Positions 8,787 to 32,597 of a DNA stretch of 64,000 nucleotides are shown here, piece after piece (the stretch's first letter is position 1; every line of letters starts with the position of its first letter). Under the pieces are notes generated by a model. It ran no database searches and was not told the DNA's origin. It was given only the letters and a program-made list of their open reading frames with translations. The DNA lies in the NCBI GenBank assembly GCA_963718615.1, contig OY970368.1, positions 1,056,001 to 1,120,000 of the forward strand, written 5' to 3'. Position numbers and translations under genes: made by a program. The stretch is from an uncultured cyanobacterium. Its GTDB lineage: Bacteria > Cyanobacteriota > Cyanobacteriia > PCC-9006 > JAAUQQ01.

Positions 8787-8799
8787 TAGGCATTTTGCA

Positions 8800-10688: not shown

Positions 10689-10876
10689 GCGTCAAACCGA
10701 GATGTCCAAGACAGGTTGAGATAGATTGAGACAGGTTGAAACCGCGTTGAAACCGCGTCAAGGGGACCGTTCACCGGGCGCGATCGCCCCCGGTCTCCCC
10801 TAGTCATTTGCAGTCAGCATTCGCTTCAATCATCCCGTGTCCCTGTTGAACCACTGCCAGCCATTTCCAGGTCAAT

Positions 10877-11056: not shown

Positions 11057-11117
11057 TGACGTTCTACCCCTCAAACAGAGGCAGAAAAACAGCGGAAATA
11101 CAGCAGAAACACAGCAG

Positions 11118-15485: not shown

Positions 15486-15676
15486 GCGAAAGAGTCTCCA
15501 GCAATCATTTCGATTTTCATACGAGAGCCTGTAATCTCCGGAATTGCACGGATAATCTTTGTCTTAAATTCACGATTTCACGAGTTTTACACAAACGAGA
15601 GATAAATTCATTCGGATCGCCCAATCCCCAGCGCGAAGTATCCAAGGATGCATCATTCTATGGATACCTTCGGCCT

Positions 15677-17485
15677 ATGATGGCTGCCCCTCCTCCAGAT
15701 CTCGCGCAGCTGCCGGCGACCCCACCGTCGCCAGCCAACGTTGTTTTTGCATCGCAGCCCCAGGTTTCTCCCATCGCCGAAGCAGCAGCCCAGGGGATTC
15801 AGCCTCCCCTCTCCCTTGAGCCGGAGCGCTTTCAGCCTGAAACCGAGCAGCCTGAAACGGAGCAGGCGATCGCCCAGCAGTTCCCGGTTCCAGAGGCCAT
15901 TCCTCCCACTTCAGAATTGCCCCAGGAATCGCCCGAGAGCAGCAGGCCAGAATTTTCAGAATCCGTTCCAGAATCGCCACCACAATCATCGCCTTCAGAG
16001 GCATCGGTCACGCTCAAAACCATTCAGGTAAACGGCAGCCAGATTTTCAGCCCTGGGGAATTTGACGCTTGGATGGCTCCCTTTCTCAATAAACCATTGG
16101 CCCCAACGGACCTGCGGGCGATCGCCGATACCATCACCCAGCATTACCTCAACCAGGGATACATCACCTCCCGTGCCTTGGATCCTGTGGTGAGTGGCGA
16201 TCGCGCCACGGTACAGATTGTCGAAGGGGCGATCGAGCAGATTGAAATTACGGGCACGGAACGGGTCAGCCAAGACTACATTCGTCGCCGCATCGAACTG
16301 GCGGCCCAACAACCCCTCAATACTAACCGCCTGGAAGAACAGCTCAAGCTGTTGCGCAATGACCCGCTGTTTGAGGAGCTGAGTGCCAGTTTGCGAGCGG
16401 GGGATGGTTTGGGGCAGAGTGTCTTGGCCGTGACGGTAAAGGAGGCCCAGTCGTTTACGGCGGAGGCCAGTGTGGATAACTATTCTCCGCCCAGTGTGGG
16501 TTCAGAACGGTTTGGTACACAACTTCAGTATCGTAACCTCACGGGCAACGGGGATGTTTTGAGTGGGGGATATACGCGATCGCGCACCGGGGGCTCCCAG
16601 CAGGTCAATCTCTCCTACAGCACACCGGTCAATCCTCGGGAGGGAACGCTAAGCCTGTCGGCGGATTGGACCCGGACCAAAATCACCCAGGATGAATTTG
16701 AATCGCTCAATATTACCGGCAACTCCCAGCGCTACAGTCTGCAATATCGCCAGCCGCTGCTCCGCAGTCTTCGCCAGGAGTTGGCGCTCTCCGCTGGGTT
16801 CACGTTTCAGGATGGTCAGACCTTTTTAGATGGTACACCAACTCCTTTTGGGGCCGGTCCCGATGCCGATGGGATCAGCCGCACAGCGGTGATTAATTTT
16901 GGCCAGGACTATGTAAAGCGGGATCCGTCGGGGGCCTGGGCGTTGCGATCGCAATTCAACCTCGGCACGGGTCTCTTCGATGCCACGAACAACGCCGAAC
17001 CCATGCCCGATGGTCAATTTCTCAGTTGGCTGGGTCAGGTGCAGCGGGTGCAGCGGCTCGGTGACAACCATTTGGTCATTGCCCAGGGGAGCCTGCAACT
17101 GAGCTCTGATGCGCTGTTGGCCTCCCAGCAGTTTAGTTTGGGTGGGGGTCAGTCCCTGCGGGGCTATCGGCAAAATGTGCGGTCTGGGGACAATGGCTTC
17201 CGGGTTTCCGTTGAGGATCGCATAACGCTGCAGCGGGATGCGGGGGGCGCTTCGACGGTGCAACTGGCTCCCTTTGCGGAGGTGGGTAAGGTTTGGAATG
17301 ATGTGGATAATCCCAGCGGCAGCGGGACGGCGCTCTTGGCGAGTGCGGGGGTGGGGGTGATCTGGAAACCAACGCCTGCGTCGACGATTCGGGTGGATTA
17401 TGGGGTGCCGTTGGTGAGTTTGGGCGATCGCGGCAACAATCTACAGGATCAAGGGGTGCATTTCAGCGCCAGCTACCGGTTTTGA
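15677..17485 (+). CDS. ShlB/FhaC/HecB-family TpsB outer-membrane transporter
   Basis: POTRA YLNQGYITSRA, DNYSPPSVGSER, GGGQSLRGYRQN (VRGY motif), terminal aromatic YRF. Confidence 0.92.
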   Translation: MMAAPPPDLAQLPATPPSPANVVFASQPQVSPIAEAAAQGIQPPLSLEPERFQPETEQPETEQAIAQQFPVPEAIPPTSELPQESPESSRPEFSESVPESPPQSSPSEASVTLKTIQVNGSQIFSPGEFDAWMAPFLNKPLAPTDLRAIADTITQHYLNQGYITSRALDPVVSGDRATVQIVEGAIEQIEITGTERVSQDYIRRRIELAAQQPLNTNRLEEQLKLLRNDPLFEELSASLRAGDGLGQSVLAVTVKEAQSFTAEASVDNYSPPSVGSERFGTQLQYRNLTGNGDVLSGGYTRSRTGGSQQVNLSYSTPVNPREGTLSLSADWTRTKITQDEFESLNITGNSQRYSLQYRQPLLRSLRQELALSAGFTFQDGQTFLDGTPTPFGAGPDADGISRTAVINFGQDYVKRDPSGAWALRSQFNLGTGLFDATNNAEPMPDGQFLSWLGQVQRVQRLGDNHLVIAQGSLQLSSDALLASQQFSLGGGQSLRGYRQNVRSGDNGFRVSVEDRITLQRDAGGASTVQLAPFAEVGKVWNDVDNPSGSGTALLASAGVGVIWKPTPASTIRVDYGVPLVSLGDRGNNLQDQGVHFSASYRF

Positions 17486-19853: not shown

Positions 19854-20984
19854 ATGATTGACCATGATCGTCTCTTCAAAGAACTTCTGACCACCTTTTT
19901 CCTCGACTTTATCGAGCTGTTTTTTCCTGACATTCTCATGTACCTTGAGCCTGATAGCCTCGACTTTCTTGATAAAGAGCTCTTCACCGATGTCACAGCG
20001 GGAGAACGTTATGAGACCGATCTTCTGGTTCAAGCCCGGTTTAGGGAGCAACCCGCTTGCTTCCTGATCCATGTTGAAAACCAGGCTAACCCTCAGAATA
20101 ACTTCGGAAAACGTATGTTCCGCTACTTTGCACGCCTCTATGAAAAATATGATACTCCTATCTATCCCATCGTCATTTTCTCCTACGATAAACCACGTAA
20201 ACGTGCCCCTAAACAATTTCGTGTTGAATTTCCGGGATTCACGGTTAATACGTTTAACTACCGTGTGCTGCAACTCAACCAACTCAACTGGCGTGATTTT
20301 CTCGATCGCCCCAATCCGATCGCCAGCGCGCTTATGACTAAAATGCATATTGAGCCCCAAGACCGACCCAAGGTCAAAGCCCAATGTCTACGCCTCTTGG
20401 TGACACTCAGATTGGATCCAGCCAGAATGCACTTGATCTCTGGATTCATCGATACCTACCTACGCCTGAACAGCCGAGAGAAGCGCCAGTTTCAAGCAGA
20501 GCTTGGTAACATTGAACCAGAAGCACAGGAGGCAGCCATGCAAATTGTCACCAGTTGGATGGAAGAAGGCATCGAGCAGGGGCTTCAGCAGGGGCTTCAA
20601 CAGGGGCTTCAGCAGGGGCTTCAACGAGAGGCGGGTCTTGTTGTGAAATTTCTGGAGCGGCAGTTAGGGCCATTGCCTGAGGCGCTGAAACAGGAGGTTT
20701 ATCGGCTGGATGCAAAAGCGCTGGATGCCCTAGAGGATGCCTGTTTTGAGATGAAATCTAGTGCTGAGTTGGCAACCTGGCTGATGATATTTCCTTCGCC
20801 TCGACAGCGTCGTGTAGTGGTCGTTCGTTTATTGCAAGAGTTTTTGGGGGAGCCGCTTTCTGCTGAAAGCCAGGAGCAGCTAGGCGGTCTCAAAAAGAGG
20901 CAGTTACAACGGTTAGGTTCAGAATTTTTGACCTTTGGGTCTGTGGCAGATTTGGAGCGTTGGTTGGCGGCGCAGGCTGGCTAA
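19854..20984 (+). CDS. Rpn/YhgA-like PD-(D/E)XK nuclease with GLQQ repeats and tandem DUF4351-like C-terminal modules
   Basis: MIDHDRLFKELL, D-LLV...IHVENQ, RMFRYFARL, TSWMEEG(IEQGLQQ)n; 12-bp repeats at about 20575-20625. Confidence 0.85.
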   Translation: MIDHDRLFKELLTTFFLDFIELFFPDILMYLEPDSLDFLDKELFTDVTAGERYETDLLVQARFREQPACFLIHVENQANPQNNFGKRMFRYFARLYEKYDTPIYPIVIFSYDKPRKRAPKQFRVEFPGFTVNTFNYRVLQLNQLNWRDFLDRPNPIASALMTKMHIEPQDRPKVKAQCLRLLVTLRLDPARMHLISGFIDTYLRLNSREKRQFQAELGNIEPEAQEAAMQIVTSWMEEGIEQGLQQGLQQGLQQGLQREAGLVVKFLERQLGPLPEALKQEVYRLDAKALDALEDACFEMKSSAELATWLMIFPSPRQRRVVVVRLLQEFLGEPLSAESQEQLGGLKKRQLQRLGSEFLTFGSVADLERWLAAQAG

Positions 20985-22435
20985 GCTTTAGCTTTTTTTA
21001 GGGCTGAAAGGCGCAGTTTGCTCCCCACAGTTTCGAGAAAGACTCTCAGCATCAGTTGACCATTGGCATCTCTCCAGGGTTGCCAAATGAGGAACATTTT
21101 GAGGGCGGTCCAAAGCCCTAGAAAGGGATGGCCGTTGTGCCAGTGGGCGTTGGCGATCGCTCCCATAGCAAGCGCCTCGACCTGCCGGTAGCCAAATTCT
21201 CGACTAGTCTGCTGGGCTTCTTGGGCATAGTCTAAAGCCTCTTGATATCGATGTATTTTTCCTAAACATCCACTCAAGGCTACTTTTTCATGGGCAATAA
21301 TTCGCAAATCACCAACAGATTGTGCATAAGCAAGTGCCTGCTCAAGATAACTGAGTGCTGCTTCCGCCTGATCGAGATGAAAGCAGTACAGAATGCCGAT
21401 GCTATTAAAAATGCTTCCAAGAAATATTCGATTGTCAGAGTTTTGCGCCAGTTTCAAACTTTTCTCAAAACAAGTTAGTGCTTTTTTATGCTGACCCAAC
21501 ATCAGGTAACAAGACCCAAGATTGTGAAATATTTCTTCTAGTTGCTCACTGTTCTCAAGGTTTCTACTAATTTTCTCTTCTATTTTAAGATATTTTATAG
21601 CAAGCTGATATTTTCCCCATGTGGAGTAGAGATTACCTAACTCATTTAAAATATGGCTATTTAGGCTCGATGATCGATCGATCTTGCTGAGTATTAATGC
21701 TTGCTTTAGGTAGGTCTCAGCTTGTTTATATTTTAAATTGATAACGTCTAGTCTGGCAAGGCCACAAAGTGATTGAATCTGTAAATTGACGTTATGGATA
21801 CAACTAGCAGCTTGCAGTTGCGTCTGATAAAAATCATTGGAGATCCTGTAGCTTCCCTGAGTTCTATATGCATTAGCTAAGCACCCAAAAGCTCTGACAA
21901 TAAGAGACTGGTCTTGTAAGATATTTTCTTTTTTGAGGAGTTCTTTGCCATAGAAAATTGCCTGTTTAATCTCTCCAATCGCTCGGTAGGAAACCGCTAG
22001 ACCACACAAACAAATACCACTTACCTCTACGGAAAGCTTGTTCAGTAAACGACTGTAGAGGTCAATGGAGATTTGATAATAGCCCCAAAGAGATAATTGC
22101 TCATGAAGAAGTTGCTGTTGTGGGGCGACAGGGATCTGTAAAATTTGCCAAGCGACTTCCCAGGCTTCCACCTCGCAGCAATGGTGAAAGGCTTCTAAAT
22201 ATCCCCGCACTTGCTCAAGCCCCGTCGCATCTACCCTTGGGCGATAGTCCACCAACCAAGATTCAGCCGCAGCGTAATGAGCCAGTTGCCAATGAGAGAC
22301 TTGTTGAGATAGGGGATAGAGCTTTTCTAAGGCTAGGGCAATTGTTTCCGAGAGTTCTCCTGGAGAATTTAGATTTAGCTGACATATCTCCGCATCTAAA
22401 TCCGCAATAAGCACATTCTGACTTTGATCCTTCAT
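20981..22435 (-). CDS. TPR-repeat protein B
   Basis: Multiple TPR units (e.g. ILNELGNLYSTWGKYQLAIKYL, FHNLGSCYLMLGQHKKALTCFEKSL); N- and C-termini paralogous to the upstream gene. Confidence 0.85.
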   Translation of the reverse strand: MKDQSQNVLIADLDAEICQLNLNSPGELSETIALALEKLYPLSQQVSHWQLAHYAAAESWLVDYRPRVDATGLEQVRGYLEAFHHCCEVEAWEVAWQILQIPVAPQQQLLHEQLSLWGYYQISIDLYSRLLNKLSVEVSGICLCGLAVSYRAIGEIKQAIFYGKELLKKENILQDQSLIVRAFGCLANAYRTQGSYRISNDFYQTQLQAASCIHNVNLQIQSLCGLARLDVINLKYKQAETYLKQALILSKIDRSSSLNSHILNELGNLYSTWGKYQLAIKYLKIEEKISRNLENSEQLEEIFHNLGSCYLMLGQHKKALTCFEKSLKLAQNSDNRIFLGSIFNSIGILYCFHLDQAEAALSYLEQALAYAQSVGDLRIIAHEKVALSGCLGKIHRYQEALDYAQEAQQTSREFGYRQVEALAMGAIANAHWHNGHPFLGLWTALKMFLIWQPWRDANGQLMLRVFLETVGSKLRLSALKKAKA

Positions 22436-22456
22436 ATTTCAGCTCTTTTTGTTAAT

Positions 22457-23896
22457 TTATGTGCGTGATTTATAGAGGAAGGCAAAGATAGTTTCTAAAG
22501 TTTTCTTCAGCATAAAGCGGCCATCTGCACTGGCCCAAGGGGGCTGTATCCAAAATGCCATGAGGATTGTCAGGATGCCTTTAATATGATGTCCATAACA
22601 CCAGTAGGCATTGGCCAGACCTGCTGTAGCAAACGATTCCATCGGTCGGTGATTGATAGATCTAAAAATATGGATTGATTGTCTAAGGTTTGAAAATACC
22701 ATCTTTTGGTCTGGATGCCTGAGTCTTGCATAGCAATAAGATAGATTATTTAAGTCGCTGGCTTGACTTATAATATCACCCAGTTTTATCGATAATTGCA
22801 GCAAATCTTGAAAGAGAATGATAGCTTTTTTATACTGACCAGAGCGCGCATAAACAGAGGCTATATTTCCTCGATTTATATATTCTCCCAACAGATCGTT
22901 ACGACTTTTGCTAATCAAAAGTGCTGTTTCTAAATATCTTAATCCAGCTTGAAAATTGTCAGAGTTTACAAGATTTCCCCCTAGATTACTAATCGCTACC
23001 CATTCTTGATGAATGATCTTAGACTGCCGAGCAATTGCAAGTTGTTCTAGTAAATATTTTTCTGCTAGTTCGGTCTTACCTAAGCGCATATAGGAAGAGC
23101 CTAAAAGTCCTAAAATCTCCGTTTTTAGTCTTAAATTAGATAGCTGTAGACTATGATCATAACTTCTTTTGATCCAACTCAATGACTCTTTGAAGTGACC
23201 CCAATCTCCCATGAGACATGCAAGATCAAGCTCAGCTTTTGTAATTTGGTCTAAATTTTCTGACGCTGTAGCCAGCTCCAGCCGACGTAAAAATAGCTTC
23301 CTCGCTTGCTTGTAGTCAGCACCTTGATTTTTGCAATGTCCTAACCCGCTCAGTGTATCTCCATACAGATCAGCATATTTTTGAGATCTGATCAGCTCAT
23401 TATTCAGAATGTGATTATAGTGATTATCCGCCGTTTTAAAGTCACCAAATTTTCGTAAGCAGTCACCAATTTTGAGATGTAGCAAGAGCTGATAGTTAGT
23501 ACTCATATGTTCAAGCAGCTTCAGACCTATTTCTTTTAATTCATTAAAATACCCTTTGCTATAGAGGCGATCGCAAACACTCTGCCGCTCCTCCTCAAAC
23601 TGAATGGGCGTCATAAACAATTGCTCGGCTCTTGGCCAATCTTCCAGTTCAACTAAATGATGAATCGCCTCTAAATATCCCCGTACCTGCTCAAGTCCAG
23701 TCGCATCAGCCCTCGGGCGATAATCCAGCAACCAAGACTCCACCGCCGCATAGTGGGCCAACTGCCAATGGGATAATCGCTGCGGTTGGGCATAGAGGGT
23801 TTCTAGATCTAGACCTGCAACCGCCGAAAGACCACCCGGTTCGTCTAGATTTAAGTCAAAAGCAGTAGCAATTAAATCCTGTTCCAGCAGTTCCAT
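22457..23896 (-). CDS. TPR-repeat protein A
   Basis: TPR units (ILGLLGSSYMRLGKTELAEKYL, RGNIASVYARSGQYKKAIILF); ATG 23896 aligns with the start of paralog B. Confidence 0.85.
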   Translation of the reverse strand: MELLEQDLIATAFDLNLDEPGGLSAVAGLDLETLYAQPQRLSHWQLAHYAAVESWLLDYRPRADATGLEQVRGYLEAIHHLVELEDWPRAEQLFMTPIQFEEERQSVCDRLYSKGYFNELKEIGLKLLEHMSTNYQLLLHLKIGDCLRKFGDFKTADNHYNHILNNELIRSQKYADLYGDTLSGLGHCKNQGADYKQARKLFLRRLELATASENLDQITKAELDLACLMGDWGHFKESLSWIKRSYDHSLQLSNLRLKTEILGLLGSSYMRLGKTELAEKYLLEQLAIARQSKIIHQEWVAISNLGGNLVNSDNFQAGLRYLETALLISKSRNDLLGEYINRGNIASVYARSGQYKKAIILFQDLLQLSIKLGDIISQASDLNNLSYCYARLRHPDQKMVFSNLRQSIHIFRSINHRPMESFATAGLANAYWCYGHHIKGILTILMAFWIQPPWASADGRFMLKKTLETIFAFLYKSRT

Positions 23897-23963
23897 CACC
23901 CTCACCCTTTTCCCGATACCTGACCTTGCTGCCAAGCGGTTCACCCCCTGGCAAAACCTCAGT

Positions 23964-25430
23964 CTACTCCCGCGAAATCTCACTCTCTATTCGCTTCAAA
24001 TGCTCCCGCGCCACACTCCGCACCAAATTATGCAACTTCAAAACCCGACGGTCCAACGCAAAGGGTTCCTCCTGATATTCCACCAAATAGCGCTGCACCA
24101 GCAGTTCCAAAGCCTGGGCTGTTTGCCCCATTGACCATCCTAGCCGTTGCACCGACCGTGCCCAAAAACGCGGCGGCACCGGACGATTAAACACCGATCC
24201 ATGGCACAACAAAATGTAAGCACCTTGCCCATGACTCGCCAATCGCTTCAGCGTCAGTTCAATGCGATCCTTGACTCGCTGCCGTAAGGATTTGCTGTAG
24301 CGATGCAGCTTGTGCTCCCGCCCTGGTTGTTCGATGCCTTCCCGCTGGGCCGTTTTCTCAATTTCAATAATCTCTTTGCCATACTTCTCCCAATAGGCCA
24401 AGACATTGCCTGAAAATGGTTCCGCTAAAATCTCACAGGCAATAAGCTGAAGCGCCAGGGGATGACCTTCATAGGCCGTTCCAATCCGCTCTAAATGGGG
24501 TCGTCCTAGAGATTCAGGCTGAACACTAATGCCCCGTAGATGAAACAGTCGCAATTGTTGCAGACGGCTGAGGCCGGTGATGGTTTGGCAGTGGTAGCGA
24601 TCGCAGGAGGGGCGATCGCGAAAACAACCGGGCAGATCCTGAGAACTAATAATCAAACGCGGCGCAAAGGCCGGGACTTCCAAACAACGCTTGAAAAACG
24701 CCTCCCAGCCCGAGTCGATAAATTCATTCCAGCCTAGCGCTTCGTTTCCTCTCAGGCAATATTCAAAGGAGTGGAGTTGGATAATGACCGGGCGATCGAC
24801 CAATGCTGCCATGAATCGATTCAGCAGTTTTTCGGCCTCCTGAAGTTCCGAATTCGGAAAGTCTATTTGCCAAGATCGGAAACAATAGGTGACGAATTGG
24901 ACAAATTCTAATCCCTCATCGGGATCGATCCGCAAAATTAATCCTTCCGGCCATCCTGCTTCGCTCAATTGGTCACCCAGATAGAGGCTAATGGCAGTTT
25001 TACCAATGCCAGTGAGGCCCGTTAGTAAGAGCAAGCGGCAGTTGAGTTGGAGATCGGCGAGGAGGCGATCGGTCACCTCTCCCCTCTCGACCCAGTTTTC
25101 TTGGGCCTGCTGAAACTCGGCCTGCTGCTCTTGCAAGGCTTTGGAGCTGTCGATCTCAATCACCTCATGCCAATTGAGATTGAGCACTTCGCAGGTTGCT
25201 CGGACGAGCGTCTCAGAAACGGGCTTCATGGCCAAAAACCGTTGCCAAGTCGCAGGGGAAAAGGCATAGAGCAGATCCCCCTCGGCATTCACCTGGGGCC
25301 ATTGCAGGTGCGGCTCTAGGAGATTACTGATTTCTGTTAGGAGCACGGTGCTAGAACGGGTAAGTTCTCGGTTTTTTATGGCTTGGAGAATGAGGGCTTG
25401 GCCGGTTTTCGAGAGTTTTAATCGTCCCAT
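23964..25430 (-). CDS. STAND/NB-ARC ATPase with N-terminal XRE-like HTH and no C-terminal repeat domain
   Basis: N-terminal SPATWQRFL...CEVLNLNWHEVI; Walker A GLTGIGKT; Walker B-like IIQLHSFE; GxP motif GHPLAL; MHD-like LHNLVRSVA about 15 aa before the stop. Confidence 0.82.
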   Translation of the reverse strand: MGRLKLSKTGQALILQAIKNRELTRSSTVLLTEISNLLEPHLQWPQVNAEGDLLYAFSPATWQRFLAMKPVSETLVRATCEVLNLNWHEVIEIDSSKALQEQQAEFQQAQENWVERGEVTDRLLADLQLNCRLLLLTGLTGIGKTAISLYLGDQLSEAGWPEGLILRIDPDEGLEFVQFVTYCFRSWQIDFPNSELQEAEKLLNRFMAALVDRPVIIQLHSFEYCLRGNEALGWNEFIDSGWEAFFKRCLEVPAFAPRLIISSQDLPGCFRDRPSCDRYHCQTITGLSRLQQLRLFHLRGISVQPESLGRPHLERIGTAYEGHPLALQLIACEILAEPFSGNVLAYWEKYGKEIIEIEKTAQREGIEQPGREHKLHRYSKSLRQRVKDRIELTLKRLASHGQGAYILLCHGSVFNRPVPPRFWARSVQRLGWSMGQTAQALELLVQRYLVEYQEEPFALDRRVLKLHNLVRSVAREHLKRIESEISRE

Positions 25431-25869
25431 ATCACACAGATGGCAATCAAGTCAATCGTCATTTTTGAGTTTATGAACAGGGGGCGGGCTGGAGAAATTC
25501 CAAAATCTGAGATTGGCGGGTCTCAGGAGTTGTCCTGTAAATTAATTCGCATAAGGTTCAGAAGTTTTGTGAGATCTTCATCATAAGCAAAGAGTGAACA
25601 TTAATTTGCTTTTGAAGTCTTTCAAATCTCTGAATTTGGCTCAAGAGCTCCCCCTCTTGTGGTCTATTTTTCAGTAACTTAATTTTTTAATTGTTAGCCC
25701 CCAGCAATTAACTGACCTAATATAGCCTGCCAGGGCGTAAAAGCTCAGAGATTAGAGGTTAAAAACATCTCTCAAAGATTTGTACTTGAGTTTAACTTGC
25801 AAAGGACTTGATTCTTCTTCGATGGCTGCGATCATAATCTACAGTTTCTAACTAACACGATTTAAGTTC

Positions 25870-26160
25870 ATGAAGAACAAGAAGTTAGTGATGCTATCGA
25901 CGGCTTTTATTTGCTCAACACTTCTCAGTGTTGCTAAACCAGCCTCTGCTTGGTCTGGCTGGAAAAATGTGTATTTAGGTCGCGCAGCTATTGCTGACAA
26001 TAGCAATTATTGGAGGGCAAAAAGCAGACAACCTTTGCCTACTCCACCTTGGGATCGAAATGATTTGTGCAGATGGAAATATGGAAGAGGAGATGCTAAG
26101 GGTAGTCAAGTATTACTCTTGAGTTGGGATACAAATTTCTACTATAGTTATTGGAGTTGA
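25870..26160 (+). CDS. Small secreted Trp/Tyr-rich cationic protein
   Basis: Sec signal MKNKKLVMLSTAFICSTLLSVAKPASA; 69-aa mature part with 7 Trp and 6 Tyr. Confidence 0.7.
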   Translation: MKNKKLVMLSTAFICSTLLSVAKPASAWSGWKNVYLGRAAIADNSNYWRAKSRQPLPTPPWDRNDLCRWKYGRGDAKGSQVLLLSWDTNFYYSYWS

Positions 26161-26302
26161 TGTTAATCTGTGTTCTGATGATTTTCAACATTAATTTAAA
26201 GAAGTAAAAGTATTAGTACCTTCCAGCACAAAGCATAAGGTCTAGAAAAGAGCTCTCCCTATCTTATGATTCCTTTCTGCAAAAAAACTGTTTTTGACAT
26301 AA

Positions 26303-26707
26303 ATGCCACCTCATAGAAAAGATACATCTTCAGGTTTTACAGTTCTTGAGCTTCTTGTCACCTTAGTGATACTAGGGCTTTTGAGTGCTACCTCTATACC
26401 TTTCCTTGCAGGACAAATAGAAAAGGCCAGGAAGGTTGAAGCTATAAATTTCATGAAAAGCTACATGGATAGACAAAAATCCTTTTATTACGAAAACCGA
26501 ACTTTTGCTAGCAATTTGACAGAACTTTCTCTTCCTAGAGAAGGGAGATACTATTATTTCGGTTCGAAAAACTACTCATTTCCAGAAATTAAAGATAGCG
26601 TTTTTTCTTGCATCACAGTGGTTCCAAAATTAATGAATCATGACTCTCTTGGTGGCTGTGTATCAAGTCGAGAACAACTTTATTATAAAACTCGAAGCAC
26701 TGTTTAG
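26303..26707 (+). CDS. Type IV pilin-like protein (cyanobacterial pilin G/H type)
   Basis: Prepilin site G|FTVLELLVTLVILGLL (E5 present); ARKVEA...RQKSFYYENRTFA. Confidence 0.85.
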   Translation: MPPHRKDTSSGFTVLELLVTLVILGLLSATSIPFLAGQIEKARKVEAINFMKSYMDRQKSFYYENRTFASNLTELSLPREGRYYYFGSKNYSFPEIKDSVFSCITVVPKLMNHDSLGGCVSSREQLYYKTRSTV

Positions 26708-26844
26708 CTATGCATTAATTAGAAAATCTGAGGTAAACTCATTTTCTTGAATATGATACTTTACAGTTAGGCTACTAGAGTTCAGTAAATTCATTTTTGT
26801 GAACTCAGGTGAATTTATCACTCTTTCTTATCTTCTTTTAACTA

Positions 26845-26926
26845 TAGGATCTCTTGCATGGATAATTTCTTAGAGGCTGAAACCCTATTGAATCTGTTGA
26901 ATTTCATGATTTATCCAAGAGATCTA
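26845..26926 (+). mobile_element. MITE-like element, copy A
   Basis: Termini TAGGATCTCTTGCA...TCCAAGAGATCTA; roughly 80% identical by eye to the reverse complement of 27551-27631. Confidence 0.75.
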
Positions 26927-26965
26927 TCGAATCTGTTCGTCAACCAAGTTAAGAATACTACTTTT

Positions 26966-27520
26966 ATGAAGATCAAATCATCTCTTTTTCTGCTTTTAGC
27001 TCTTACTCCTGTACTGTTCAAGATCCAGCCGTCATCTGCGCAATCTCAGCGTTCTTCTAATACAGCATCATTAGCAGAGATGTCATGCAAAAATATCGGT
27101 GGTAAATTTAGAGTTAAAAATGAAGATATTGTGATAGGGCGTCGTGTTTATACAGGAATCTTGGAGGTAAGCGACTCCGGAGATCCATATACATGGAATC
27201 AGGCAATTGCGATTACTTGCGCTCTAGCCTCTAATGGTTCTCAGCCCAGATTTAGAACTCTTAACTTAGCCTTCGGCATTGCAGATGACCATCCCTATTC
27301 CGTAGGAAAGACAGAAATTAGAATGAAGTTATTTCGAGATGGAGGTTTTTATGAGTCCGTCAATATTAGGCAAGGAGATTCAATCAGGGCTGCCATTAAT
27401 GTAGAAAACATAAGAAGCTTTTCCTTTGAACTAGAGTGTCTTAATGGACGCCCAGCACTAGGAGGGGGTGAAGGGTACTGCCCACCAGTATGGTTTACAG
27501 AAGATCTGCTGACAGAGTAA
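26966..27520 (+). CDS. Secreted protein with NPCBM/NEW2-like beta-sandwich
   Basis: Signal peptide MKIKSSLFLLLALTPVLFKIQPSSA; FRTLNLAFGIADD...LFRDG...INVENIRSFSFE pattern; the track start at 26858 lies inside the MITE. Confidence 0.65.
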   Translation: MKIKSSLFLLLALTPVLFKIQPSSAQSQRSSNTASLAEMSCKNIGGKFRVKNEDIVIGRRVYTGILEVSDSGDPYTWNQAIAITCALASNGSQPRFRTLNLAFGIADDHPYSVGKTEIRMKLFRDGGFYESVNIRQGDSIRAAINVENIRSFSFELECLNGRPALGGGEGYCPPVWFTEDLLTE

Positions 27521-27550
27521 AACTTGGTAATTCCACTAGATTTAGTGCAT

Positions 27551-27631
27551 TAGATCTCTTGCATAAATCATGAAAATCAACGGATTTTACAGGGCTTCAT
27601 CCTTCAAAAAGGTATCCGTGCAAGAGATCTA
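27551..27631 (-). mobile_element. MITE-like element, copy B
   Basis: Perfect 13-bp TIR TAGATCTCTTGCA/TGCAAGAGATCTA enclosing 55 bp. Confidence 0.8.
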
Positions 27632-27732
27632 TTTATTCAACGTGAAGTCACACAGAATAAGCATGTCGAACTCTTGTTATATCTCTCTTTCTACAAGAGC
27701 TTTATGCTGAAAATTTTCTAACCTTGAAAGAT

Positions 27733-28446
27733 ATGAACAGAAGGAAGCTTATTAGAATTGGCACATTAGGATCAATCTCTTGTGCAACAGGAATTAATCT
27801 CTATAATCCTCAATCTGTGCAAGCTTTTGGACCACTATTTTCATTGTTTCTAAGAGTAGGACTCTCTTATGCGATTGAAAATGCCACTCACTTAGGTTTA
27901 CAGGGGATGTTAGGTATTTACTATAAAGAAATGCGGAGAAGAGTACAGGAATGGTATGATCGACGCCTAGATGCCCAGTTAGCTCAGCGAGCATTAATTG
28001 AGCAAGATTTTACTGATATCAGGGCAGTAGGAATTCCTAATACATCTTATAAGCATATTTTGATCGGAACCAAACAAGAAGCCTCAGGCTATTACAGTCC
28101 AGCTATAGTTTTGCCACGACTAACAGGACAAGGTAATGACCTAGTAGCTTTTTCAGGGCCAGCAGCAATCGGAATCAGTTATGCAGCTAATTATCTCAGC
28201 AAAACTACTCATATGTCCCTGAAGCAGATTCAATCAGCATTGCTTCCAACTCGACGTCATCTCGATGAATGGCATTCTTGGGAGCAAGATTTTGCGCCTA
28301 TTAGTTATGAGACAGCTACATCCTCAAATGGTGTAACGATTCAATATCGTAGGTCTGGAAAGCACCTGAATGGAAGTGCGGAAATTTTGGTCGGTATCGA
28401 TGTTGGGCACAGACTTAGTTTTTCCGTTGAAGTTCAGTTCGGCTAA
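27733..28446 (+). CDS. Hypothetical exported protein with twin-arginine-like leader
   Basis: MNRRKLIRIGTLGSISCATG...SVQA; no recognisable domain. Confidence 0.6.
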   Translation: MNRRKLIRIGTLGSISCATGINLYNPQSVQAFGPLFSLFLRVGLSYAIENATHLGLQGMLGIYYKEMRRRVQEWYDRRLDAQLAQRALIEQDFTDIRAVGIPNTSYKHILIGTKQEASGYYSPAIVLPRLTGQGNDLVAFSGPAAIGISYAANYLSKTTHMSLKQIQSALLPTRRHLDEWHSWEQDFAPISYETATSSNGVTIQYRRSGKHLNGSAEILVGIDVGHRLSFSVEVQFG

Positions 28447-28532: not shown

Positions 28533-30305
28533 GGTAGTGCATTTATGTAAAGGATAAAGAGAAATAGGGTAAACCTACTATCGAAAGAAGGATAAAGGAA
28601 AACAAAGCGTAGCTGCTGTAGTCGGTAAGGATAGAAGACAACCCGGCATAGCTGTTGTAGCAGAAAGGAAAAGATGACCCTAGAACTCACTTGCCCGACC
28701 TGTGGCTCCCACGACATTTCCAAGAATGGAATAACGCGCCGAGGTAAACAGAACTACAAATGCCGAGACTGCAACCGACAGTTTGTCGAATACCCCCAGT
28801 GGAAGCCGAAAGACAAAGACACCCAGAGTTTGGTAGACCTGCTGTTGCTAGAGAAAATGCCCCTGGCAGGGATTGCTAGAGCAATAGACCTGTAGGGAAA
28901 TAAGAGATAATAGTCGGTAGTTGCACGCTGCTCTAGCCATGCTGAACTTAGACCGAATTCTCCGGGATGACCGCCTGTTGCGGGCAATGACAGGACTCAA
29001 TCGCCAAGCATTTGAGAAACTTCTGCCCAGTTTTAGAGAGGCGTATCAGCAGAGTCAGGTGAAACCTGGGGTAGAGCGAAAACGCGCTCCCGGAGGGGGA
29101 CGAAAAGCGACCCTACGAACAAACCGTGACAAGTTGTTTTACATTTTGTTGTACTGCAAATGCTATCCCACCTTCGACTTACTGAGTGTGTTGTTTGACT
29201 TTGACCGTTCCTGTGCATGGGATTGGGTACATGGTCTGCTCCCAGTTTTGGAACAGGCTTTAGGGCTCAAGCAGGTGCTACCGGAGCGCAAGGTACGGAG
29301 CATAGAGGAATTTCTAGAACGCTTTCCAGAGGTGAAAGAAGTGATTTTCGATGGGACGGAGCGACCCGTGCAGCGTCCTCAAGACTCGAGCAAACAAAAA
29401 GAACATTACTCAGGCAAAAAGAAACGGCATACCCGTAAGCACATCACAGGCAGTACGCGAAAAAAGCGAGTGATCCTCCTGACGAAGGCGAGACCTGGAA
29501 AAATTCATGACAAACGACAGTTGGACGAAGAAGACTTGGTGGGCAACATTCCCGATGAAGTTGCTATAGAAGGAGACTTAGGATTTCAAGGATTACAGAA
29601 TGAGTTTGAGAACGTTCATTTGCCGCACAAGAAACCCAAGGGCAAGGAATTAAGCGAACAACAGAAGCAGGAAAACCGAGAGTTCAGTCGGCAACGAGTC
29701 GTGTGTGAACATGCCCATGCAGGCATCAAGCGTTATCGTTCGGTCACAGATGTTTATCGCAATCGTGTGCCTGATTTTGATGACCGCTTAATGCTTAATG
29801 CTGCGGGTTTATGGAACTGGTATTTGGATGCAGCATAAATTGGGCAGAAACATTGGCAAACCTTGTCCTAAAGCGAGTTTTATTGCCCAACAACTCTAAT
29901 AGGTGTTTCAAGCAGTTGGCTGCAAGATTACGTCAATGCATACTATGAAGCGGTGCCTCAAGAGGTAGAAGTACTGCCCAAAGCGAAAGGGAAGCTGAGA
30001 GTGCAGATGGATGAGCTGTGGTCATTTGTAGACCATAAGGGCAACAAGCAATGGGTCTGGCTCGCGCTGGATGCCGACACCCGAGAGGTGATTGGTTGTC
30101 ACATCGGCGATCCTTCGGAGCTTGGCGAAGCCAATCGTTCCCGAGAATCAGCCAGGGCGTTGTGGGCATCATTACCGTCGGTGTATCGGCAATGTGCCAC
30201 GGTCTATACCGATTTTGGGGAAGCTTACGAGACCGTTATTCCAGCAAAGCGTCATCGTGCGGTCGGCAAAGAGTGTGGTTTGACCAGCTACATAGAAAGG
30301 TTCAA
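28533..30305 (+). mobile_element. IS1-family element, interrupted by an IS5-family element and 3'-truncated
   Basis: Left end GGTAGTG; InsA zinc finger CPTCGS...YKCRDC (from 28674); the frame continues across the insertion (GIARAI|GVSSSWLQDYVN) into the InsB motifs MDELWSFV, VYTD, YIERFN. Confidence 0.85.
28886..29897 (+). mobile_element. IS5-family (ISL2-like, DDE_Tnp_4-type) insertion sequence, intact; transposase about 28939-29838
   Basis: IRs AGACCTGTAGGGAAATAA / TTATTGCCCAACAACTCT; 3-bp target duplication AAT; DGTE, YSGKKKRHT, DLGFQG, CEHA motifs. Confidence 0.88.
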
Positions 30306-32597
30306 TCCGCCCAGCGATTTCATGAGCTTTGAGCTGACGCCACTCAGTTTCAATCAGATTCATCTCGGAGCAATAAGGAGACAGAAAGAAGACAATCAGC
30401 CCCTTCTCCTGCCATTCTGGCCACCGCTTTCGAACGGCCTTACTTTTGTAAGATGAACCATTGAAGTGAACCCCTTCCTTTGGACAGAAAGATCTGGCCT
30501 AAGCGAGAGTTATTTTACTTTTATCACACTTCTGCATTCTGTTGCCCGCGCATCCACTTTTCTTCAAATTCAGCCGGTGTCAAATAGCTCAATGACGAGT
30601 GGATTCTTTTCTTCATATACACTTCCTCTAGAAACTCTTCTATTCGCTCATAGACCTCACTAAAGTTTCGGTATTCTGATAGGTCTACTTCTTCTTCTTT
30701 GATCGTCCTCATTAATCTTTCCGCATATCCATTCTCCCAGGCTTTCCCGACTGCTGCCATACTAATCTTAACGTTGTGTTCTTCCAACATTTTTACATAG
30801 TCATTCGCTGCATATTGCACCCCTTGATCTGAATGATGTATCTCGGGAATTGCTTTCATCAATCCCTTCTCCAGTGCTGTTATCGTCAAGCTCTTCTCCA
30901 TTGTCTTATCCAGGTGCCATCCTCGTATACTGCGGGTGAATACATCCATCACCACTGCCAGATAGACAAACTCCTCCTTCAAGCGGATATAGGTGATGTC
31001 CGCCACCCACACCTGCTCAGGACGCATTACCAACAGCCCTTTCTCCAGATTTGGATAACGCCGATAGCCATGCACACTGTTCGTCGTTCGCTTCCGCCTC
31101 ACCCGCTTTTGAGCTAGTAGACCTAACTGCCTCATCAGACGACTCACTCGCTTATGGTTGACACTCCATCCTTCTCGCTGAAGTTGTTTCGTTATCCGTC
31201 TGTAACCGTAAGTCGGATATCTTCCTGCAACTTCGATAATCGCTACTCTGAGCTTTTCGTCTTCATCTTCTTTCTCTGAATTCGGCTTGTAGTAATATCG
31301 GCTTCGACTGTATCCAATCACATCGCAAATAATTTGAATGGGATAGTCTTCCTTAAGCTCCTCTATCATTTTCCGTTTCCGCTCAGGTTCCACACATCCG
31401 AAGCTTTTTTTGACACTTCCAGCTCCATTGTCAATCGACCTATCATTCTTTCTAATTCGCTTATTCTCTCTGAGGCTTCGTCATTTGATTCTTTCCCTTC
31501 AAATGCTCGATGGGCCTGCTTGAGAAATTCATTCTTCCACCGGCATAGCACTGATAGATGGACCTTATGAGCTCGACTTGCCTCCGTCGGCGACCGCTGG
31601 CCGCTGACCATTTCCAGTACCACCTTGGCCTTGAACTCGCTGCTGTAATTTCTCTGTCTTTTTGCCATGACCCTTTTGCCTCCTGGACTTTAGCTTACTC
31701 TCTCTCGCTTCTGTTCAGGTTTTGGGGGTCACTTCACATTGTCTTGAACCACGACAGTGAATCGTCCAGTCTCAGCCAAGGTCACTTCCGCTTTCTGGAC
31801 CACCGATTCCATGAATTTGAGATACCGCTGTTCATTGAAACTCCCGACAGCTAAGGCATAATCAAAGCTCTGACCCGGTTCAGATAGGCCGATGATGCTC
31901 AATCGCCTGCCTCGTCGGTCGGTCTGCTCTTGATACTTCTGTTGGCCTACTCGGATGTAGCTGTAGCTCACCGGGCTCCACAGGCAAAATCCAGATTCAT
32001 CGAGATACTTGAGGTCAATTTGTCCCTCGTCCGCTGCTCGATTGAGCAACGCTAAATCGGCTTGTTTGAGTTCCTTCTGCTCCGGGTCTTGCTTGCCTCG
32101 GTGCGATTGCCTCGTTCGTTTCCAGTTGACGCCCTTTTTTTTAGCACCCGTCTCAAACGGTCGCTGCTAAGCTGAACCTGACACCCTTGCTCTAACAACC
32201 TTGAGAGCTGAACGCTCGTGTAGGTTCTCTCTTCTTTCTCTAAGCAGGTCTCCAGGTACACTAAGTCCGCTTCACTCCATTTGGGCTTGACACTCCCCTA
32301 CTCGGAGCATCCCACAGGCCCATCAATCCTGCACTTTGCCAGCACTTTATCGTTTGTCTCACCGTGTTGGGATGGCAGCCAAAACATTCAGCTATTTTCG
32401 CCACTCGCCATCCCTGCCCATTCAGCAGCAGCATGTGGGCACGATCCTTCGTCCGCTGAAGCACCTTGGGAGCTACACGTAGCTCCTCCAGCATGGTTTG
32501 TTCTGGCTCACTCAAGCTAATTCGTAGAGGGGCTCCCATCGCTCTGCCTCAATCTTCAACTCCTCTCCTGATTCTCTCACTCTTATTTCCACCTACT
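30306..32597 (-). mobile_element. IS630-family element, degenerate: split by an IS3-family element and 3'-truncated
   Basis: Left end TA|AGTAGGTGGAAATAAG; HTH ORF from 32539; extra frameshift near 32295; A8 slip site 32135-32142; LDESGF, VVQDN|GS, PYCSEMNLIE motifs. Confidence 0.85.
30462..31736 (-). mobile_element. IS3-family insertion sequence, intact (orfA 31366-31668, orfB 30524-31393)
   Basis: TG..CA ends TGAAGTGAACCCC/GGGGGTCACTTCA; target duplication CAT; A7G slippery site 31404-31411; WVADITY, HHSDQGVQY, ENGYAER. Confidence 0.92.

What the first reader, a model, noticed from the sequence alone, without database searches (positions are those of the whole stretch)
20981..25430. Best candidate new system: split NLR-like operon, one HTH-NB-ARC hub plus two stand-alone TPR subunits
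Seen: three co-oriented, closely spaced genes. The ATPase has HTH, Walker A, GxP and MHD-like motifs but stops right after the winged helix. Each downstream gene begins with the same about 90-aa module (SHWQLAHYAAxESWLxDYRPRxDATGLEQVRGYLEAxHH), continues with TPRs and ends with a shared cap (ANAxW..G....G.......PW..A.G..ML...LET). Known: STAND proteins (Avs, bacterial NLRs, MalT-type regulators) normally carry effector, NTPase and sensor in one chain. Inference: the shared N-module docks on the ATPase in trans, giving one switch with interchangeable sensors. The only effector-like domain is a DNA-binding HTH, so the output may be transcriptional, e.g. on the divergent exported-protein cassette.
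Basis: partly seen in the sequence, partly recalled or inferred. Interest (0 to 1): 0.82.

Follow-up and report, generated by a model that had tools for sequence, protein, structure and literature searches.

The report
Split bacterial NLR-like switch, separate sensors
A cyanobacterial operon encodes an NLR-type ATPase core without a sensor, followed by two separate repeat proteins that each carry the missing "arm plus sensor", and this split layout recurs in many cyanobacteria with one to five sensor genes per core.

Summary
Three co-oriented minus-strand genes encode a 488-aa NB-ARC-like ATPase that ends just after its winged helix (25430..23964) and two 479/484-aa TPR proteins (23896..22457, 22435..20981). 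Both TPR proteins share an N-terminal ~110-aa module and a C-terminal cap.

This is not a broken gene. Of 74 related ATPase genes with at least 1500 nt of downstream sequence, 70 are followed on the same strand by 1-5 TPR genes that start with this module, and none of the 80 ATPase ORFs carries it fused. Seeding from the module instead, 23 of 29 loci have a separate ATPase directly upstream and 3 are fusions.

In the rare fused relatives the module follows the winged helix directly, so it corresponds to the STAND "arm" (HD2).

A complex prediction puts the module's invariant helix on the conserved winged-helix motif (ipSAE 0.68; best control 0.00).

Relatives carry PNP, TIR/SEFIR, metallophosphatase or death-like domains in place of the HTH-like N-terminus.

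The output of this particular copy is open. Its HTH-like domain has a 22-aa insertion and matches no Pfam family, and its Walker B Asp is His.

I found no published description. I rate it a new variant of a known kind.

The parts
23964..25430 (-). Sensor-less STAND/NB-ARC-like ATPase (488 aa): N-terminal HTH-like domain, then NBD, HD1 and WHD. It ends 16 residues after the MHD-like motif.
   Evidence: Translation. AF2 model pLDDT 83.2, pTM 0.70. Foldseek top hits are NRC2 8rfh (E 5.1e-10), Apaf-1 1z6t, CED-4, MalT 8bob and PH0952 6mfv. A profile search against PDB finds the Roq1 NB-ARC at E 1e-5.
25146..25430 (-). N-terminal Cro/C1(XRE)-like domain (residues 1-95) with a 22-aa insertion between the presumed helix 2 and helix 3.
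   Evidence: Alignment A5. Pfam finds nothing for this copy; among 25 relatives 4 match HTH_26 and one each match HTH_3, HTH_31 and HTH_24. The Atlas gives a lead only, score 0.84.
24996..25019 (-). Walker A, GLTGIGKT (residues 138-145).
   Evidence: G138, G141, G143, K144 and T145 are invariant in 80 of 80 homologues.
24762..24785 (-). Walker B-like strand IIQLHSFE (residues 216-223), with His220 where 78 of 80 homologues have Asp.
   Evidence: Column counts. The His is shared by P0004, P0005 and P0006.
24141..24221 (-). Winged-helix motif AYILLCHGSVFNRPVPPRFWARSVQRL (residues 404-430), the predicted docking surface for the TPR N-module.
   Evidence: Interface residues 406, 409-416, 418-419, 421-422, 425-426 and 429-430. 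Y405 is invariant, and L407, C409, V418 and W423 are at least 90% conserved in 80 homologues.
23897..23963 (-). Non-coding spacer between the ATPase stop (TAG, 23966-23964) and the TPR-A start (ATG, 23896). GAGG lies 4-7 nt before the ATG.
   Evidence: Sequence. Contigs from related strains carry a 1-nt insertion at 23904.
22457..23896 (-). TPR-A (479 aa): arm-like N-module, TPR solenoid and conserved cap.
   Evidence: (P0123).
23516..23851 (-). N-module (arm-like) of TPR-A.
   Evidence: hmmsearch with my N-module HMM, E 2.0e-38.
20981..22435 (-). TPR-B (484 aa): arm-like N-module, TPR solenoid and conserved cap.
   Evidence: AF2 model pLDDT 86.2, pTM 0.81, all-helical from residue 48, with residues 1-38 below pLDDT 50. 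Foldseek finds LGN and Rap TPR domains.
22046..22378 (-). N-module (arm-like) of TPR-B, residues 20-130. Invariant positions are A56, W60, Y64, L73, G78, E81, H85, W92 and L114.
   Evidence: Alignment A3. Predicted interface residues 48-49, 51-56, 58-60, 63, 67, 77, 81, 84-85 and 88.
21026..21175 (-). Shared C-terminal cap of TPR-B (residues 421-470; ANAHW...QPW...NGQLML...LET).
   Evidence: 21 of 50 residues are identical to TPR-A, against 60 of 288 in the middle. By my reading of alignment A2, about 14 of 20 homologues keep the ..PPW.. form.
25431..25869 (.). Divergent intergenic region between the ATPase and the exported-protein cassette. It is a candidate control region only.
   Evidence: Only weak repeats were found, including a 15-nt direct repeat at 25536 and 25595. 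Promoter-like hits are not above the shuffled control.

Best explanation
This is a STAND (NLR-like) molecular switch whose parts are divided between polypeptides at the boundary of the winged-helix domain and the arm.

**Components.** One gene gives the N-terminal output domain plus the nucleotide-binding oligomerisation core (NBD-HD1-WHD). Each downstream gene gives an arm (HD2-like N-module) joined to a TPR sensor and a conserved cap.

**Proposed mechanism.**
- The invariant first helices of the arm dock non-covalently on the conserved LLC..SVYR.PVP..FW surface of the WHD. This is the same WHD-arm contact that is intramolecular in single-chain STANDs.
- Docking keeps the core closed until the TPR binds its ligand.
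- The core then exchanges nucleotide, oligomerises and activates its N-terminal domain.
- All sensor subunits of a locus share the same docking module but differ in the repeats, so one core can be served by several alternative sensors. There are two here and up to five elsewhere.

**Output.** In relatives the output domain is PNP, TIR/SEFIR, metallophosphatase or a death-like adaptor, which points to a conflict or defence role for the family. In this copy it is an atypical XRE-like domain, so the output is probably DNA binding or transcription, but this is the weakest step.

**Shown:** the anatomy, the conservation of the split, the variable copy number, the homology of the module to the post-WHD segment of fusions, and protein-level selection on the module.

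**Inferred:** physical docking (prediction only), autoinhibition, ligand sensing, and the output.
For: **The split is conserved.**
- 70 of 74 ATPase genes with at least 1500 nt downstream are followed on the same strand by 1-5 N-module TPR genes.
- 0 of 80 ATPase ORFs carry the module.
- In 63 of 72 cases the first TPR ORF overlaps the ATPase stop or starts within 70 nt of it.

**Reverse seeding agrees.** The module occurs in 38 of 401 cyanobacterial genomes. In 23 of 29 loci a separate ATPase lies directly upstream, 2 are array members, 3 are fused and 1 has none.

**A paralogous locus in the same genome has the same split.** The ATPases are 32% identical and the genes are 15 nt apart.

**The module equals the arm.**
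- In the fused P0130 and P0145 the module follows directly after ...HNLIRSVA....
- In PH0952 the NOD is followed by an arm of TPR-like hairpins that docks on the WHD (PMC6468293, passages read).

**Docking prediction.**
- ipSAE was 0.68, 0.67 and 0.68, and the best of 3 controls was 0.00. That mark was reached by 58 of 80 solved complexes and 2 of 110 mismatched pairs.
- The runs agree in at least 64% of contacts and the partner pLDDT is at least 74.
- The interface joins the WHD (406-430, 458, 478-482) with module residues 48-88. It includes the invariant A56, W60, E81 and H85 of the module and C409 and V418 of the WHD.

**Constant dock, variable sensor.**
- In this window, 35 of 41 module residues are identical between TPR-A and TPR-B, against 60 of 288 in the middle.
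- Codon identity is 16 of 33 in the module, against 25 of 60 in the middle.
- Across loci the module is more conserved than the rest in 33 of 36 within-locus paralogue pairs, and in 13 of 13 loci.

**Effector swapping at the N-terminus.** PNP occurs in 11, TIR_2 in 11 and SEFIR in 10 of 80. Metallophosphatase, ParA-like, bDLD3 and EAD8 domains also occur.

**Fold.** NB-ARC-like.
Against: - No experiment or expression data exist. No RNA run holds the stretch.
- The complex prediction used my own alignments, and it may pass from the model's memory of the intramolecular WHD-arm contact in solved single-chain STANDs. It shows likeness, not binding.
- The stand-alone-specific N-terminal ~40 residues of the TPR proteins are disordered in the model and unplaced in the complex, so their role is unknown.
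- This copy is atypical. The Walker B Asp is replaced by His (2 of 80). The HTH-like domain has a 22-aa insertion and no Pfam match. The N-terminal profile finds nothing significant in PDB (best E 0.17). ATP hydrolysis and DNA binding are therefore both in doubt here.
- No conserved target gene or third component was found.
- 4 of 74 ATPases have no adjacent module gene.
- The loci are the 80 best of 293, so the more distant relatives were not examined.
- ORFs were called as the longest frames, and the HMMs were my own.
Confidence: 0.65

Rival explanations
1. The TPR proteins are constitutive anti-activators or chaperones of the NOD, in the way CED-9 restrains the sensor-less CED-4. They are not ligand sensors, and the signal enters elsewhere.
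For: - The arm is the main autoinhibitory element in TPR-type STANDs (PMC6468293, passages read).
- CED-4/CED-9 complexes are among the fold neighbours of the ATPase (2a5y).
- The predicted contact involves only the constant module.
Against: - The repeats diversify strongly between paralogues while the dock is kept (33 of 36 pairs), and copy number varies from 1 to 5. That pattern is expected of recognition modules, not of a uniform inhibitor.
- In fused relatives the same TPRs occupy the canonical sensor position.
Confidence: 0.15
2. The HTH-type operons, including this one, are ordinary chromosomal signal-responsive transcription regulators of the MalT or AfsR kind. They happen to be split and have nothing to do with defence.
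For: - A BT1/MFS transporter is a convergent neighbour in the window and in L009, L011, L051, L067, L070 and L071, which suggests long residence in one chromosomal place.
- HTH-type loci mostly have a single TPR gene: 51 of 58 have at most one, against 8 of 16 for enzymatic types.
- STAND transcription factors are well known (PMC4381067 and PMC10936776, abstracts seen).
Against: - The distribution is patchy: 38 of 401 genomes and 27 of 155 genera.
- The same NOD clade carries PNP, TIR/SEFIR, metallophosphatase and death-like domains in the HTH's place.
- The window locus is flanked by transposase-like genes and low-GC DNA.
- No conserved target gene was found.
- This copy's HTH is atypical.
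Confidence: 0.3
3. A recently broken, formerly fused STAND gene (a pseudogene), with a duplicated remnant.
For: Fused homologues exist (P0130, P0145, P0147 and others).
Against: - The split is kept in 70 of 74 loci.
- It is also kept in a paralogue of the same genome that is 32% identical.
- The stand-alone TPRs have their own start, an SD-like sequence and an extra N-terminal peptide absent from fusions.
- The orthologue at 71% identity keeps the same three-gene order.
Confidence: 0.02
4. The ATPase and the TPR genes are merely neighbours with no physical or functional link.
For: TPR proteins are very common in cyanobacteria, and no binding has been measured.
Against: - The module family is small: 547 clusters at 50% identity among 1.84 billion representatives.
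- It nevertheless sits behind, or fused to, this NOD family in 28 of 29 module-seeded loci.
- The genes overlap or abut in 63 of 72 cases.
- The module is homologous to the covalently attached arm of fusions.
Confidence: 0.03

Closest known systems
Single-chain TPR-type STANDs: PH0952 (PDB 6mfv) and MalT
   Same: An NBD-HD-WHD core is followed by an arm of TPR-like hairpins and a TPR sensor. The arm docks on the WHD and keeps the core closed (PMC6468293). Both are fold neighbours of the ATPase (6mfv and 8bob).
   Different: Here the arm and sensor are on separate polypeptides, in 1-5 copies per core, and the output domain is N-terminal. MalT's HTH (LuxR-type) is C-terminal; this detail is recalled.
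AfsR (SARP-NOD-TPR transcription activator of Streptomyces)
   Same: An N-terminal DNA-binding output domain, then a NOD, then a TPR (PMC10936776, abstract seen).
   Different: AfsR is one chain with an OmpR-type SARP domain. The NCBIfam AfsR model matches only the TPR part, weakly (34.6 bits against a cut-off of 1430).
Avs (antiviral STAND) and other bacterial NLR-like defence proteins
   Same: The same tripartite logic of effector, STAND NTPase and TPR-like sensor. Relatives of this ATPase carry typical defence effectors (PNP, TIR/SEFIR).
   Different: Avs proteins are single chains with sensors of 400 aa or more in cis. The 2026 census excluded clades lacking such sensors from its sensor analysis (PMC13581612, section 5 and passages read). 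PADLOC has no match for the ATPase. No defence phenotype is known.
nSTAND / AP-ATPase conflict systems of multicellular bacteria (Kaur, Burroughs, Iyer, Aravind 2020 and 2021)
   Same: Relatives match nSTAND6 (53 of 80), nSTAND3 (51 of 80), nSTAND1 (44 of 80) and NB-ARC (68 of 80). They carry bDLD3, EAD8, TIR and PNP domains and occur mainly in filamentous cyanobacteria.
   Different: The passages I read describe the repeats as fused to the NTPase. I did not find a trans-encoded arm-TPR array there. Their supplementary neighbourhood tables could not be seen.
CED-4/CED-9; NAIP-NLRC4 and plant sensor/helper NLR pairs
   Same: CED-4 is a sensor-less NB-ARC core controlled by a separate protein (2a5y). 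In NAIP-NLRC4 and plant NLR pairs several sensors feed one executor; that part is recalled.
   Different: CED-9 is unrelated to arm or TPR domains. NAIPs and plant sensor NLRs each have their own NOD, whereas here the sensors have none.

Membership tests
STAND / NB-ARC (AP-ATPase-like) NTPase | Walker A P-loop GxxxxGK[ST] | tested here: met
   GLTGIGKT at 138-145, invariant in 80 of 80 homologues.
STAND / NB-ARC (AP-ATPase-like) NTPase | Walker B hhhhD (Mg-coordinating Asp) | tested here: not met
   This copy has IIQLHSFE with His220. 78 of 80 homologues have Asp, and the His is shared with P0004, P0005 and P0006. The family meets the feature; this clade does not.
STAND / NB-ARC (AP-ATPase-like) NTPase | GxP motif in HD1, and a WHD with an MHD-like His | tested here: met
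   EGHPLAL: G322, H323 and P324 are invariant in 80 of 80. For LHNLVRS, H467 and N468 are present in 79 of 80.
STAND / NB-ARC (AP-ATPase-like) NTPase | NBD-HD1-WHD fold | tested here: met
   AF2 pLDDT 83.2. Foldseek probability 1.00 to NRC2, Apaf-1, CED-4, MalT and PH0952. The Pfam NB-ARC model is below threshold for this copy but matches 68 of 80 relatives at E<=1e-3.
Canonical single-chain STAND architecture (NOD-arm-sensor) | Arm and repeat sensor in the same polypeptide as the NOD | tested here: not met
   The stop codon lies 16 residues after the MHD-like motif. 0 of 80 ATPase ORFs carry the module.
Avs / known anti-phage STAND systems | Match to a curated defence-system model | tested here: not met
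   PADLOC gives 0 families for the ATPase. Only generic 'TPR' models match the TPR proteins (PDLC01169, E 4.9e-41 and 3.1e-26).
Avs / known anti-phage STAND systems | Protection against phage and recognition of a phage protein | not testable with these tools
[quoted passage not shown] | Sequence match to HTH_3, HTH_26 or HTH_31, and an uninterrupted helix-turn-helix | tested here: inconclusive
   The window's N-terminus has 0 Pfam families. Among 25 relatives HTH_26 matches 4, HTH_3 matches 1 and HTH_31 matches 1. A 22-aa insertion lies between the presumed helices 2 and 3. A profile search against PDB gives a best E of 0.17.
TPR sensor proteins | TPR repeats forming a solenoid | tested here: met
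   TPR_12 at E 1.1e-18 and 3.6e-27. The AF2 model is an all-helical solenoid with pLDDT 86.2. Foldseek finds LGN and Rap TPR domains.
STAND arm (HD2) domain | Helical hairpins directly after the WHD that contact the WHD | tested here: met
   In the fused P0130 and P0145 the module follows ...HNLIRSVA... directly. The module is helical from residue 48. The predicted WHD contact has ipSAE 0.68 against 0.00 for controls. The contact itself is a prediction, not a measurement.

The most novel reading that the evidence does not exclude
A family of bacterial NLR-type receptors works as a hub with plug-in sensors. A sensor-less NOD core carrying the effector is armed by exchangeable arm-TPR subunits, which are encoded in expandable tandem arrays of 1-5 genes, some with two docking modules in one chain. 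One executioner can therefore survey several triggers. This would be a prokaryotic counterpart of sensor/helper NLR networks, built by splitting the protein at the WHD-arm hinge. The window's clade, with a His in Walker B and an interrupted HTH, would be a derived version with two sensors that is poor at hydrolysis or does not hydrolyse at all.
Probability: 0.45. Interest if true: 0.82.

Novelty: new variant of a known kind. Interest (0 to 1): 0.7.

Why it matters
STAND/NLR proteins are treated as single-chain receptors in which effector, switch and sensor are covalently coupled. A widespread natural version is cut exactly at the WHD-arm hinge, with a constant docking module and diversified sensors in arrays.

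- **Mechanism.** It would show that the autoinhibitory arm can act in trans.
- **Experimental access.** It gives a natural system for dissecting arm-NOD control with separable proteins.
- **Census gap.** Surveys that require a cis sensor of 400 aa or more (PMC13581612) would pass over such cores.
- **Evolution of specificity.** It suggests how bacteria can widen recognition by duplicating a small sensor gene instead of a whole receptor.
- **Practical use.** The PNP and TIR members with 3-5 sensors are the obvious candidates for phage-defence tests.

Tried and rejected
**Hypotheses set aside**
- Broken gene: rejected on the comparative data.
- Conserved third component or effector gene: all-against-all clustering of 1745 ORFs from 79 loci plus the window found none. 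The only recurrent neighbours are Uma2-like and DUF4058-like genes, a BT1 transporter (7 places) and a PEP-CTERM-like exported protein (7 loci).
- Operator search in 25431-25869: only weak repeats, and promoter-like hits are not above shuffles.
- Gene conversion as the cause of module identity: rejected on codon usage.

**Searches that gave little**
- HTH homology by PDB profile: nothing significant. The Atlas gave a lead below 0.9 only.
- Direction of fission against fusion: a FastTree of 202 NODs needs 3 changes for the 12 fused rows. The tree is unrooted and has long-branch warnings, so the direction is unresolved.
- Expression: no RNA holder is listed.
- Reads: only low-depth contigs of related strains were available. 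One bridges the ATPase/TPR-A junction and shows a 1-nt insertion in the spacer. 82 difference rows were not shown, so the stop codon in those strains is not verified.

**Literature**
- Kaur 2020 and 2021, the 2026 Avs census, the ParA preprint and the CRISPR-linked genes preprint (passages or one section read) do not describe this split.
- The CRISPR-linked STANDs in the preprint are single-chain NTPase-TPR proteins.

**Tools or sources not available**
- The look-up of encoding contigs is marked closed and was not called.
- PMC6003329 is not held.
- Supplementary tables of the census papers could not be seen and may list this clade.

Full report
**1. What is in the window**

Three co-oriented minus-strand ORFs occupy 20981-25430.
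- The first (25430..23964, 488 aa) has GLTGIGKT, EGHPLAL and LHNLVRS motifs. It stops 16 residues after the last of these.
- The second ORF opens at a GTG (23983) that overlaps the ATPase end. The ATG at 23896 is preceded by GAGG and corresponds to the database protein P0123 (479 aa). That leaves a 67-nt spacer.
- The third (22435..20981, 484 aa) starts 21 nt after the second ends.
- The two TPR proteins are 31% identical overall (E 2e-58). Identity is 35/41 in residues 46-86, 21/50 in the C-terminal cap and 60/288 in the repeats between.
- In the module only 16 of 33 identical degenerate residues share a codon, against 25 of 60 in the middle. The module is therefore held by selection on the protein, not by recent gene conversion.

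**2. Folds**

- The ATPase model (pLDDT 83.2, pTM 0.70) matches NB-ARC/NOD structures. These are NRC2 8rfh (E 5.1e-10), Apaf-1 1z6t, CED-4, MalT 8bob and PH0952 6mfv, all at probability 1.00.
- A profile of 13 homologues finds the Roq1 NB-ARC in PDB at E 1e-5.
- Pfam is below threshold for this copy (AAA_16, E 8e-4). Among 80 homologues NB-ARC matches 68, nSTAND6 53, nSTAND3 51 and nSTAND1 44.
- TPR-B models as an all-helical solenoid from residue 48 (pLDDT 86.2), with residues 1-38 disordered. It resembles LGN and Rap TPR domains.

**3. The split is the rule in this family**

- A scan of one genome per species found 293 relatives of the ATPase, of which the best 80 (79 loci) were kept.
- I scanned these with two HMMs built here, one for the ATPase (A1) and one for the N-module (from the hits). 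That gave 80 ATPase genes.
- Of the 74 with at least 1500 nt downstream, 70 are followed on the same strand by N-module TPR genes: 55 by one, 8 by two, 3 by three, 2 by four and 2 by five.
- None of the 80 ATPase ORFs contains the module.
- In 63 of 72 cases the first TPR ORF overlaps the ATPase stop or starts within 70 nt.
- The four exceptions (L029, L031, L064, L079) have unrelated genes downstream.
- Seeding from the module instead, it occurs in 38 of 401 sampled cyanobacterial genomes (27 of 155 genera). Of 29 loci other than the window's own, 23 have a separate ATPase directly upstream, 2 are inner members of arrays, 3 are fusions and 1 has no ATPase within 1.4 kb.
- The window's own genome has a second such locus. 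Its ATPase is 32% identical and the TPR gene starts 15 nt after it, but that TPR gene is interrupted by two copies of an IS.
- In a library of 1.84 billion representatives the module defines 547 clusters (429 at E<=1e-10). Of the best 150, 139 carry it within the first 54 residues. Five carry it at residues 443-575 of proteins 803-980 aa long, which are fusions.

**4. What the module is**

- In the fused relatives P0130 (841 aa) and P0145 (778 aa) the module follows ...HNLIRSVA..., the point where the window's ATPase ends, after about ten residues.
- In the solved TPR-type STAND PH0952 the NOD (NBD-HD-WHD) is followed by an arm of three TPR-like hairpins and then the TPR sensor. The arm docks on the WHD and is the key autoinhibitory element (PMC6468293, passages read).
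- The module is therefore the arm, and the genes are divided at the WHD-arm hinge.
- Stand-alone forms add about 20-45 N-terminal residues that fusions lack, with a loosely conserved P.GE..L..LGI motif.

**5. Docking**

- I ran one complex prediction: the full ATPase alignment against residues 1-200 of the TPR alignment.
- It gave ipSAE 0.68, 0.67 and 0.68, with 0.00 for the best of three controls.
- That mark was reached by 58 of 80 solved complexes and 2 of 110 mismatched pairs. The runs agree in at least 64% of contacts and the partner pLDDT is at least 74.
- The confident interface joins WHD residues 406-430, 458 and 478-482 with module residues 48-60, 63, 67, 77, 81, 84-85 and 88.
- These include the invariant A56, W60, E81 and H85 of the module. 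They also include the conserved LLC..SV(Y/F)..PVP..FW motif of the WHD.
- The alignments were my own, and solved single-chain STANDs contain the same contact within one chain. The pass therefore shows likeness, not binding.

**6. One core, several sensors**

- Within loci that have two or more TPR genes, the module is more conserved than the rest in 33 of 36 paralogue pairs, and in all 13 loci.
- Arrays are commoner behind cores with long enzymatic N-termini (8 of 16) than behind HTH-type cores (7 of 58; Fisher p 0.0024). Related loci are not independent, so this p value overstates the case.
- One genome has a 658-aa core followed by five TPR genes with seven modules. Two of those genes carry two modules each.
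- The cap is also conserved in the HTH-associated subfamily; by my reading about 14 of the 20 sequences in A2 keep it.
- I infer, but did not test, that the cap makes the second contact with the NBD, the sensor-NBD contact described for PH0952.

**7. Output and role**

- In the position of the window's N-terminal domain, relatives carry the following:
  - PNP (11 of 80), TIR_2 (11) and SEFIR (10);
  - metallophosphatase, ParA-like and bDLD3 domains at the N-terminus;
  - EAD8 at the C-terminus of one relative.
- This is the effector-swapping pattern described for conflict systems of multicellular bacteria (PMC7159879 and PMC8195603, passages read).
- Together with the patchy distribution, it favours a defence or conflict role for the family.
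- About 60 of the 80 have the short N-terminal domain that some sources call HTH. The Pfam support is weak: HTH_3 matches 3 and HTH_31 matches 2 of 80, and HTH_26 matches 4 of 25 N-termini.
- The window's copy, and a small clade around it, have a 22-aa insertion where the turn should be.
- The window, P0004, P0005 and P0006 also have His in place of the Walker B Asp.
- DNA binding and hydrolysis are therefore uncertain for this copy, although 70-85% identical relatives keep all these features, so it is under constraint.
- No conserved target gene was found. The divergent exported-protein cassette (25870-28446) is specific to this genome. A BT1 transporter is a recurrent convergent neighbour, and a PEP-CTERM-like protein is a divergent neighbour in some other loci.

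**8. Comparison with what is known**

- The parts are those of a STAND/NLR-like receptor. The new feature is the conserved division into a NOD core and trans-encoded arm-sensor subunits in arrays.
- PADLOC has no model for the core.
- The 2026 STAND census analysed cis sensors of 400 aa or more and excluded clades lacking them from that analysis (PMC13581612, section 5 and passages). It mentions 'split proteins' only in the methods for Avs7/Dsr1.
- Five full-text searches and the passages I read gave no description of this arrangement.
- Supplementary tables were closed and may list the clade.

**9. Verdict**

- Physical docking rests on a prediction.
- The sensing and the output are inferred, and the output of this particular copy is the least certain part.
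- I rate it a new variant of a known kind, with interest 0.7.

Noticed in passing
window 24762-24785 (residues 216-223 of the ATPase): The Walker B Asp is replaced by His in the window's protein and in P0004, P0005 and P0006, all four members of its close clade. 78 of 80 homologues have Asp. This may mean a core that binds nucleotide but hydrolyses it poorly or not at all.
   Followed up: partly
window 25257-25322 (about residues 37-58 of the ATPase): A 22-aa insertion lies between the presumed helices 2 and 3 of the XRE-like N-terminal domain. It is shared with L009, L074, P0007, P0008 and P0010 and would interrupt a canonical helix-turn-helix.
   Followed up: partly
L008 (G000:C1:1904000-1918000), 5178-11183: This is a second split locus in the same genome. 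A 467-aa HTH-type ATPase is followed 15 nt later by an N-module TPR gene, which is interrupted by two identical copies of an IS (393-aa transposase) flanking a 130-aa gene. The rest of the TPR gene resumes at 10167.
   Followed up: partly
L118 (G364:C1:2502000-2521500), 3449-15336: This is the largest array seen: a 658-aa core followed by five TPR genes carrying seven N-modules. Two genes (564 and 1189 aa) have two modules each, so one chain might bridge two cores.
   Followed up: partly
loci L009-L087: Sensor arrays of two or more genes are commoner behind cores with enzymatic N-termini (8 of 16) than behind HTH-type cores (7 of 58). Fisher p is 0.0024, but the loci are related and not independent.
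   Followed up: partly
window 11118-17485: A 1455-aa protein with a TPS secretion domain and a C-terminal CHAT (caspase-like) domain lies divergent from a ShlB/FhaC-type outer-membrane transporter. This looks like two-partner secretion of a CHAT protease.
   Followed up: no
window 19854-20984: A YhgA-like transposase/DUF4351 gene is convergent with TPR-B and overlaps its last 4 nt. It sits between the operon and the BT1 transporter, which is the direct neighbour in related loci.
   Followed up: no
window 25870-28446: A low-GC (0.37) divergent cassette of small exported proteins. It holds a 96-aa protein with a signal peptide, a 134-aa pilin-like protein with an N-terminal methylation motif, and 220-aa and 240-aa proteins with signal-like N-termini. 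IS and integrase genes follow at 28674-31393. The cassette is not conserved in other loci.
   Followed up: partly
L012, L013, L014, L017, L018, L022 (upstream of the ATPase): A ~330-aa exported protein with a PEP-CTERM-like C-terminus lies divergent and directly upstream of the HTH-type ATPase in six loci. A homologue also occurs in L067, in another position. It could be a regulated target or mere synteny.
   Followed up: no
TPR-B residues 46-175; PADLOC model PDLC01169: A generic PADLOC 'TPR repeats containing protein' model matches the N-module strongly (E 4.9e-41, profile positions 13-144). Proteins with this module were therefore already collected in a defence or CRISPR-linked gene set without the link to the ATPase. 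L079 has RAMP-like genes nearby.
   Followed up: no
window 25536-25550 and 25595-25609: A 15-nt direct repeat (TGTAAATTAATTCGC / TGAACATTAATTTGC) lies 59 nt apart in the divergent intergenic region. Each copy holds the palindrome AATTAATT. It may be chance.
   Followed up: no
L027, L055, L057; P0057: A few members lie on contigs labelled Flavobacterium, Saccharibacteria, Pirellulaceae (a 336-kb contig) and Candidatus Parabeggiatoa. The family may reach beyond cyanobacteria, or some bins may be contaminated.
   Followed up: no
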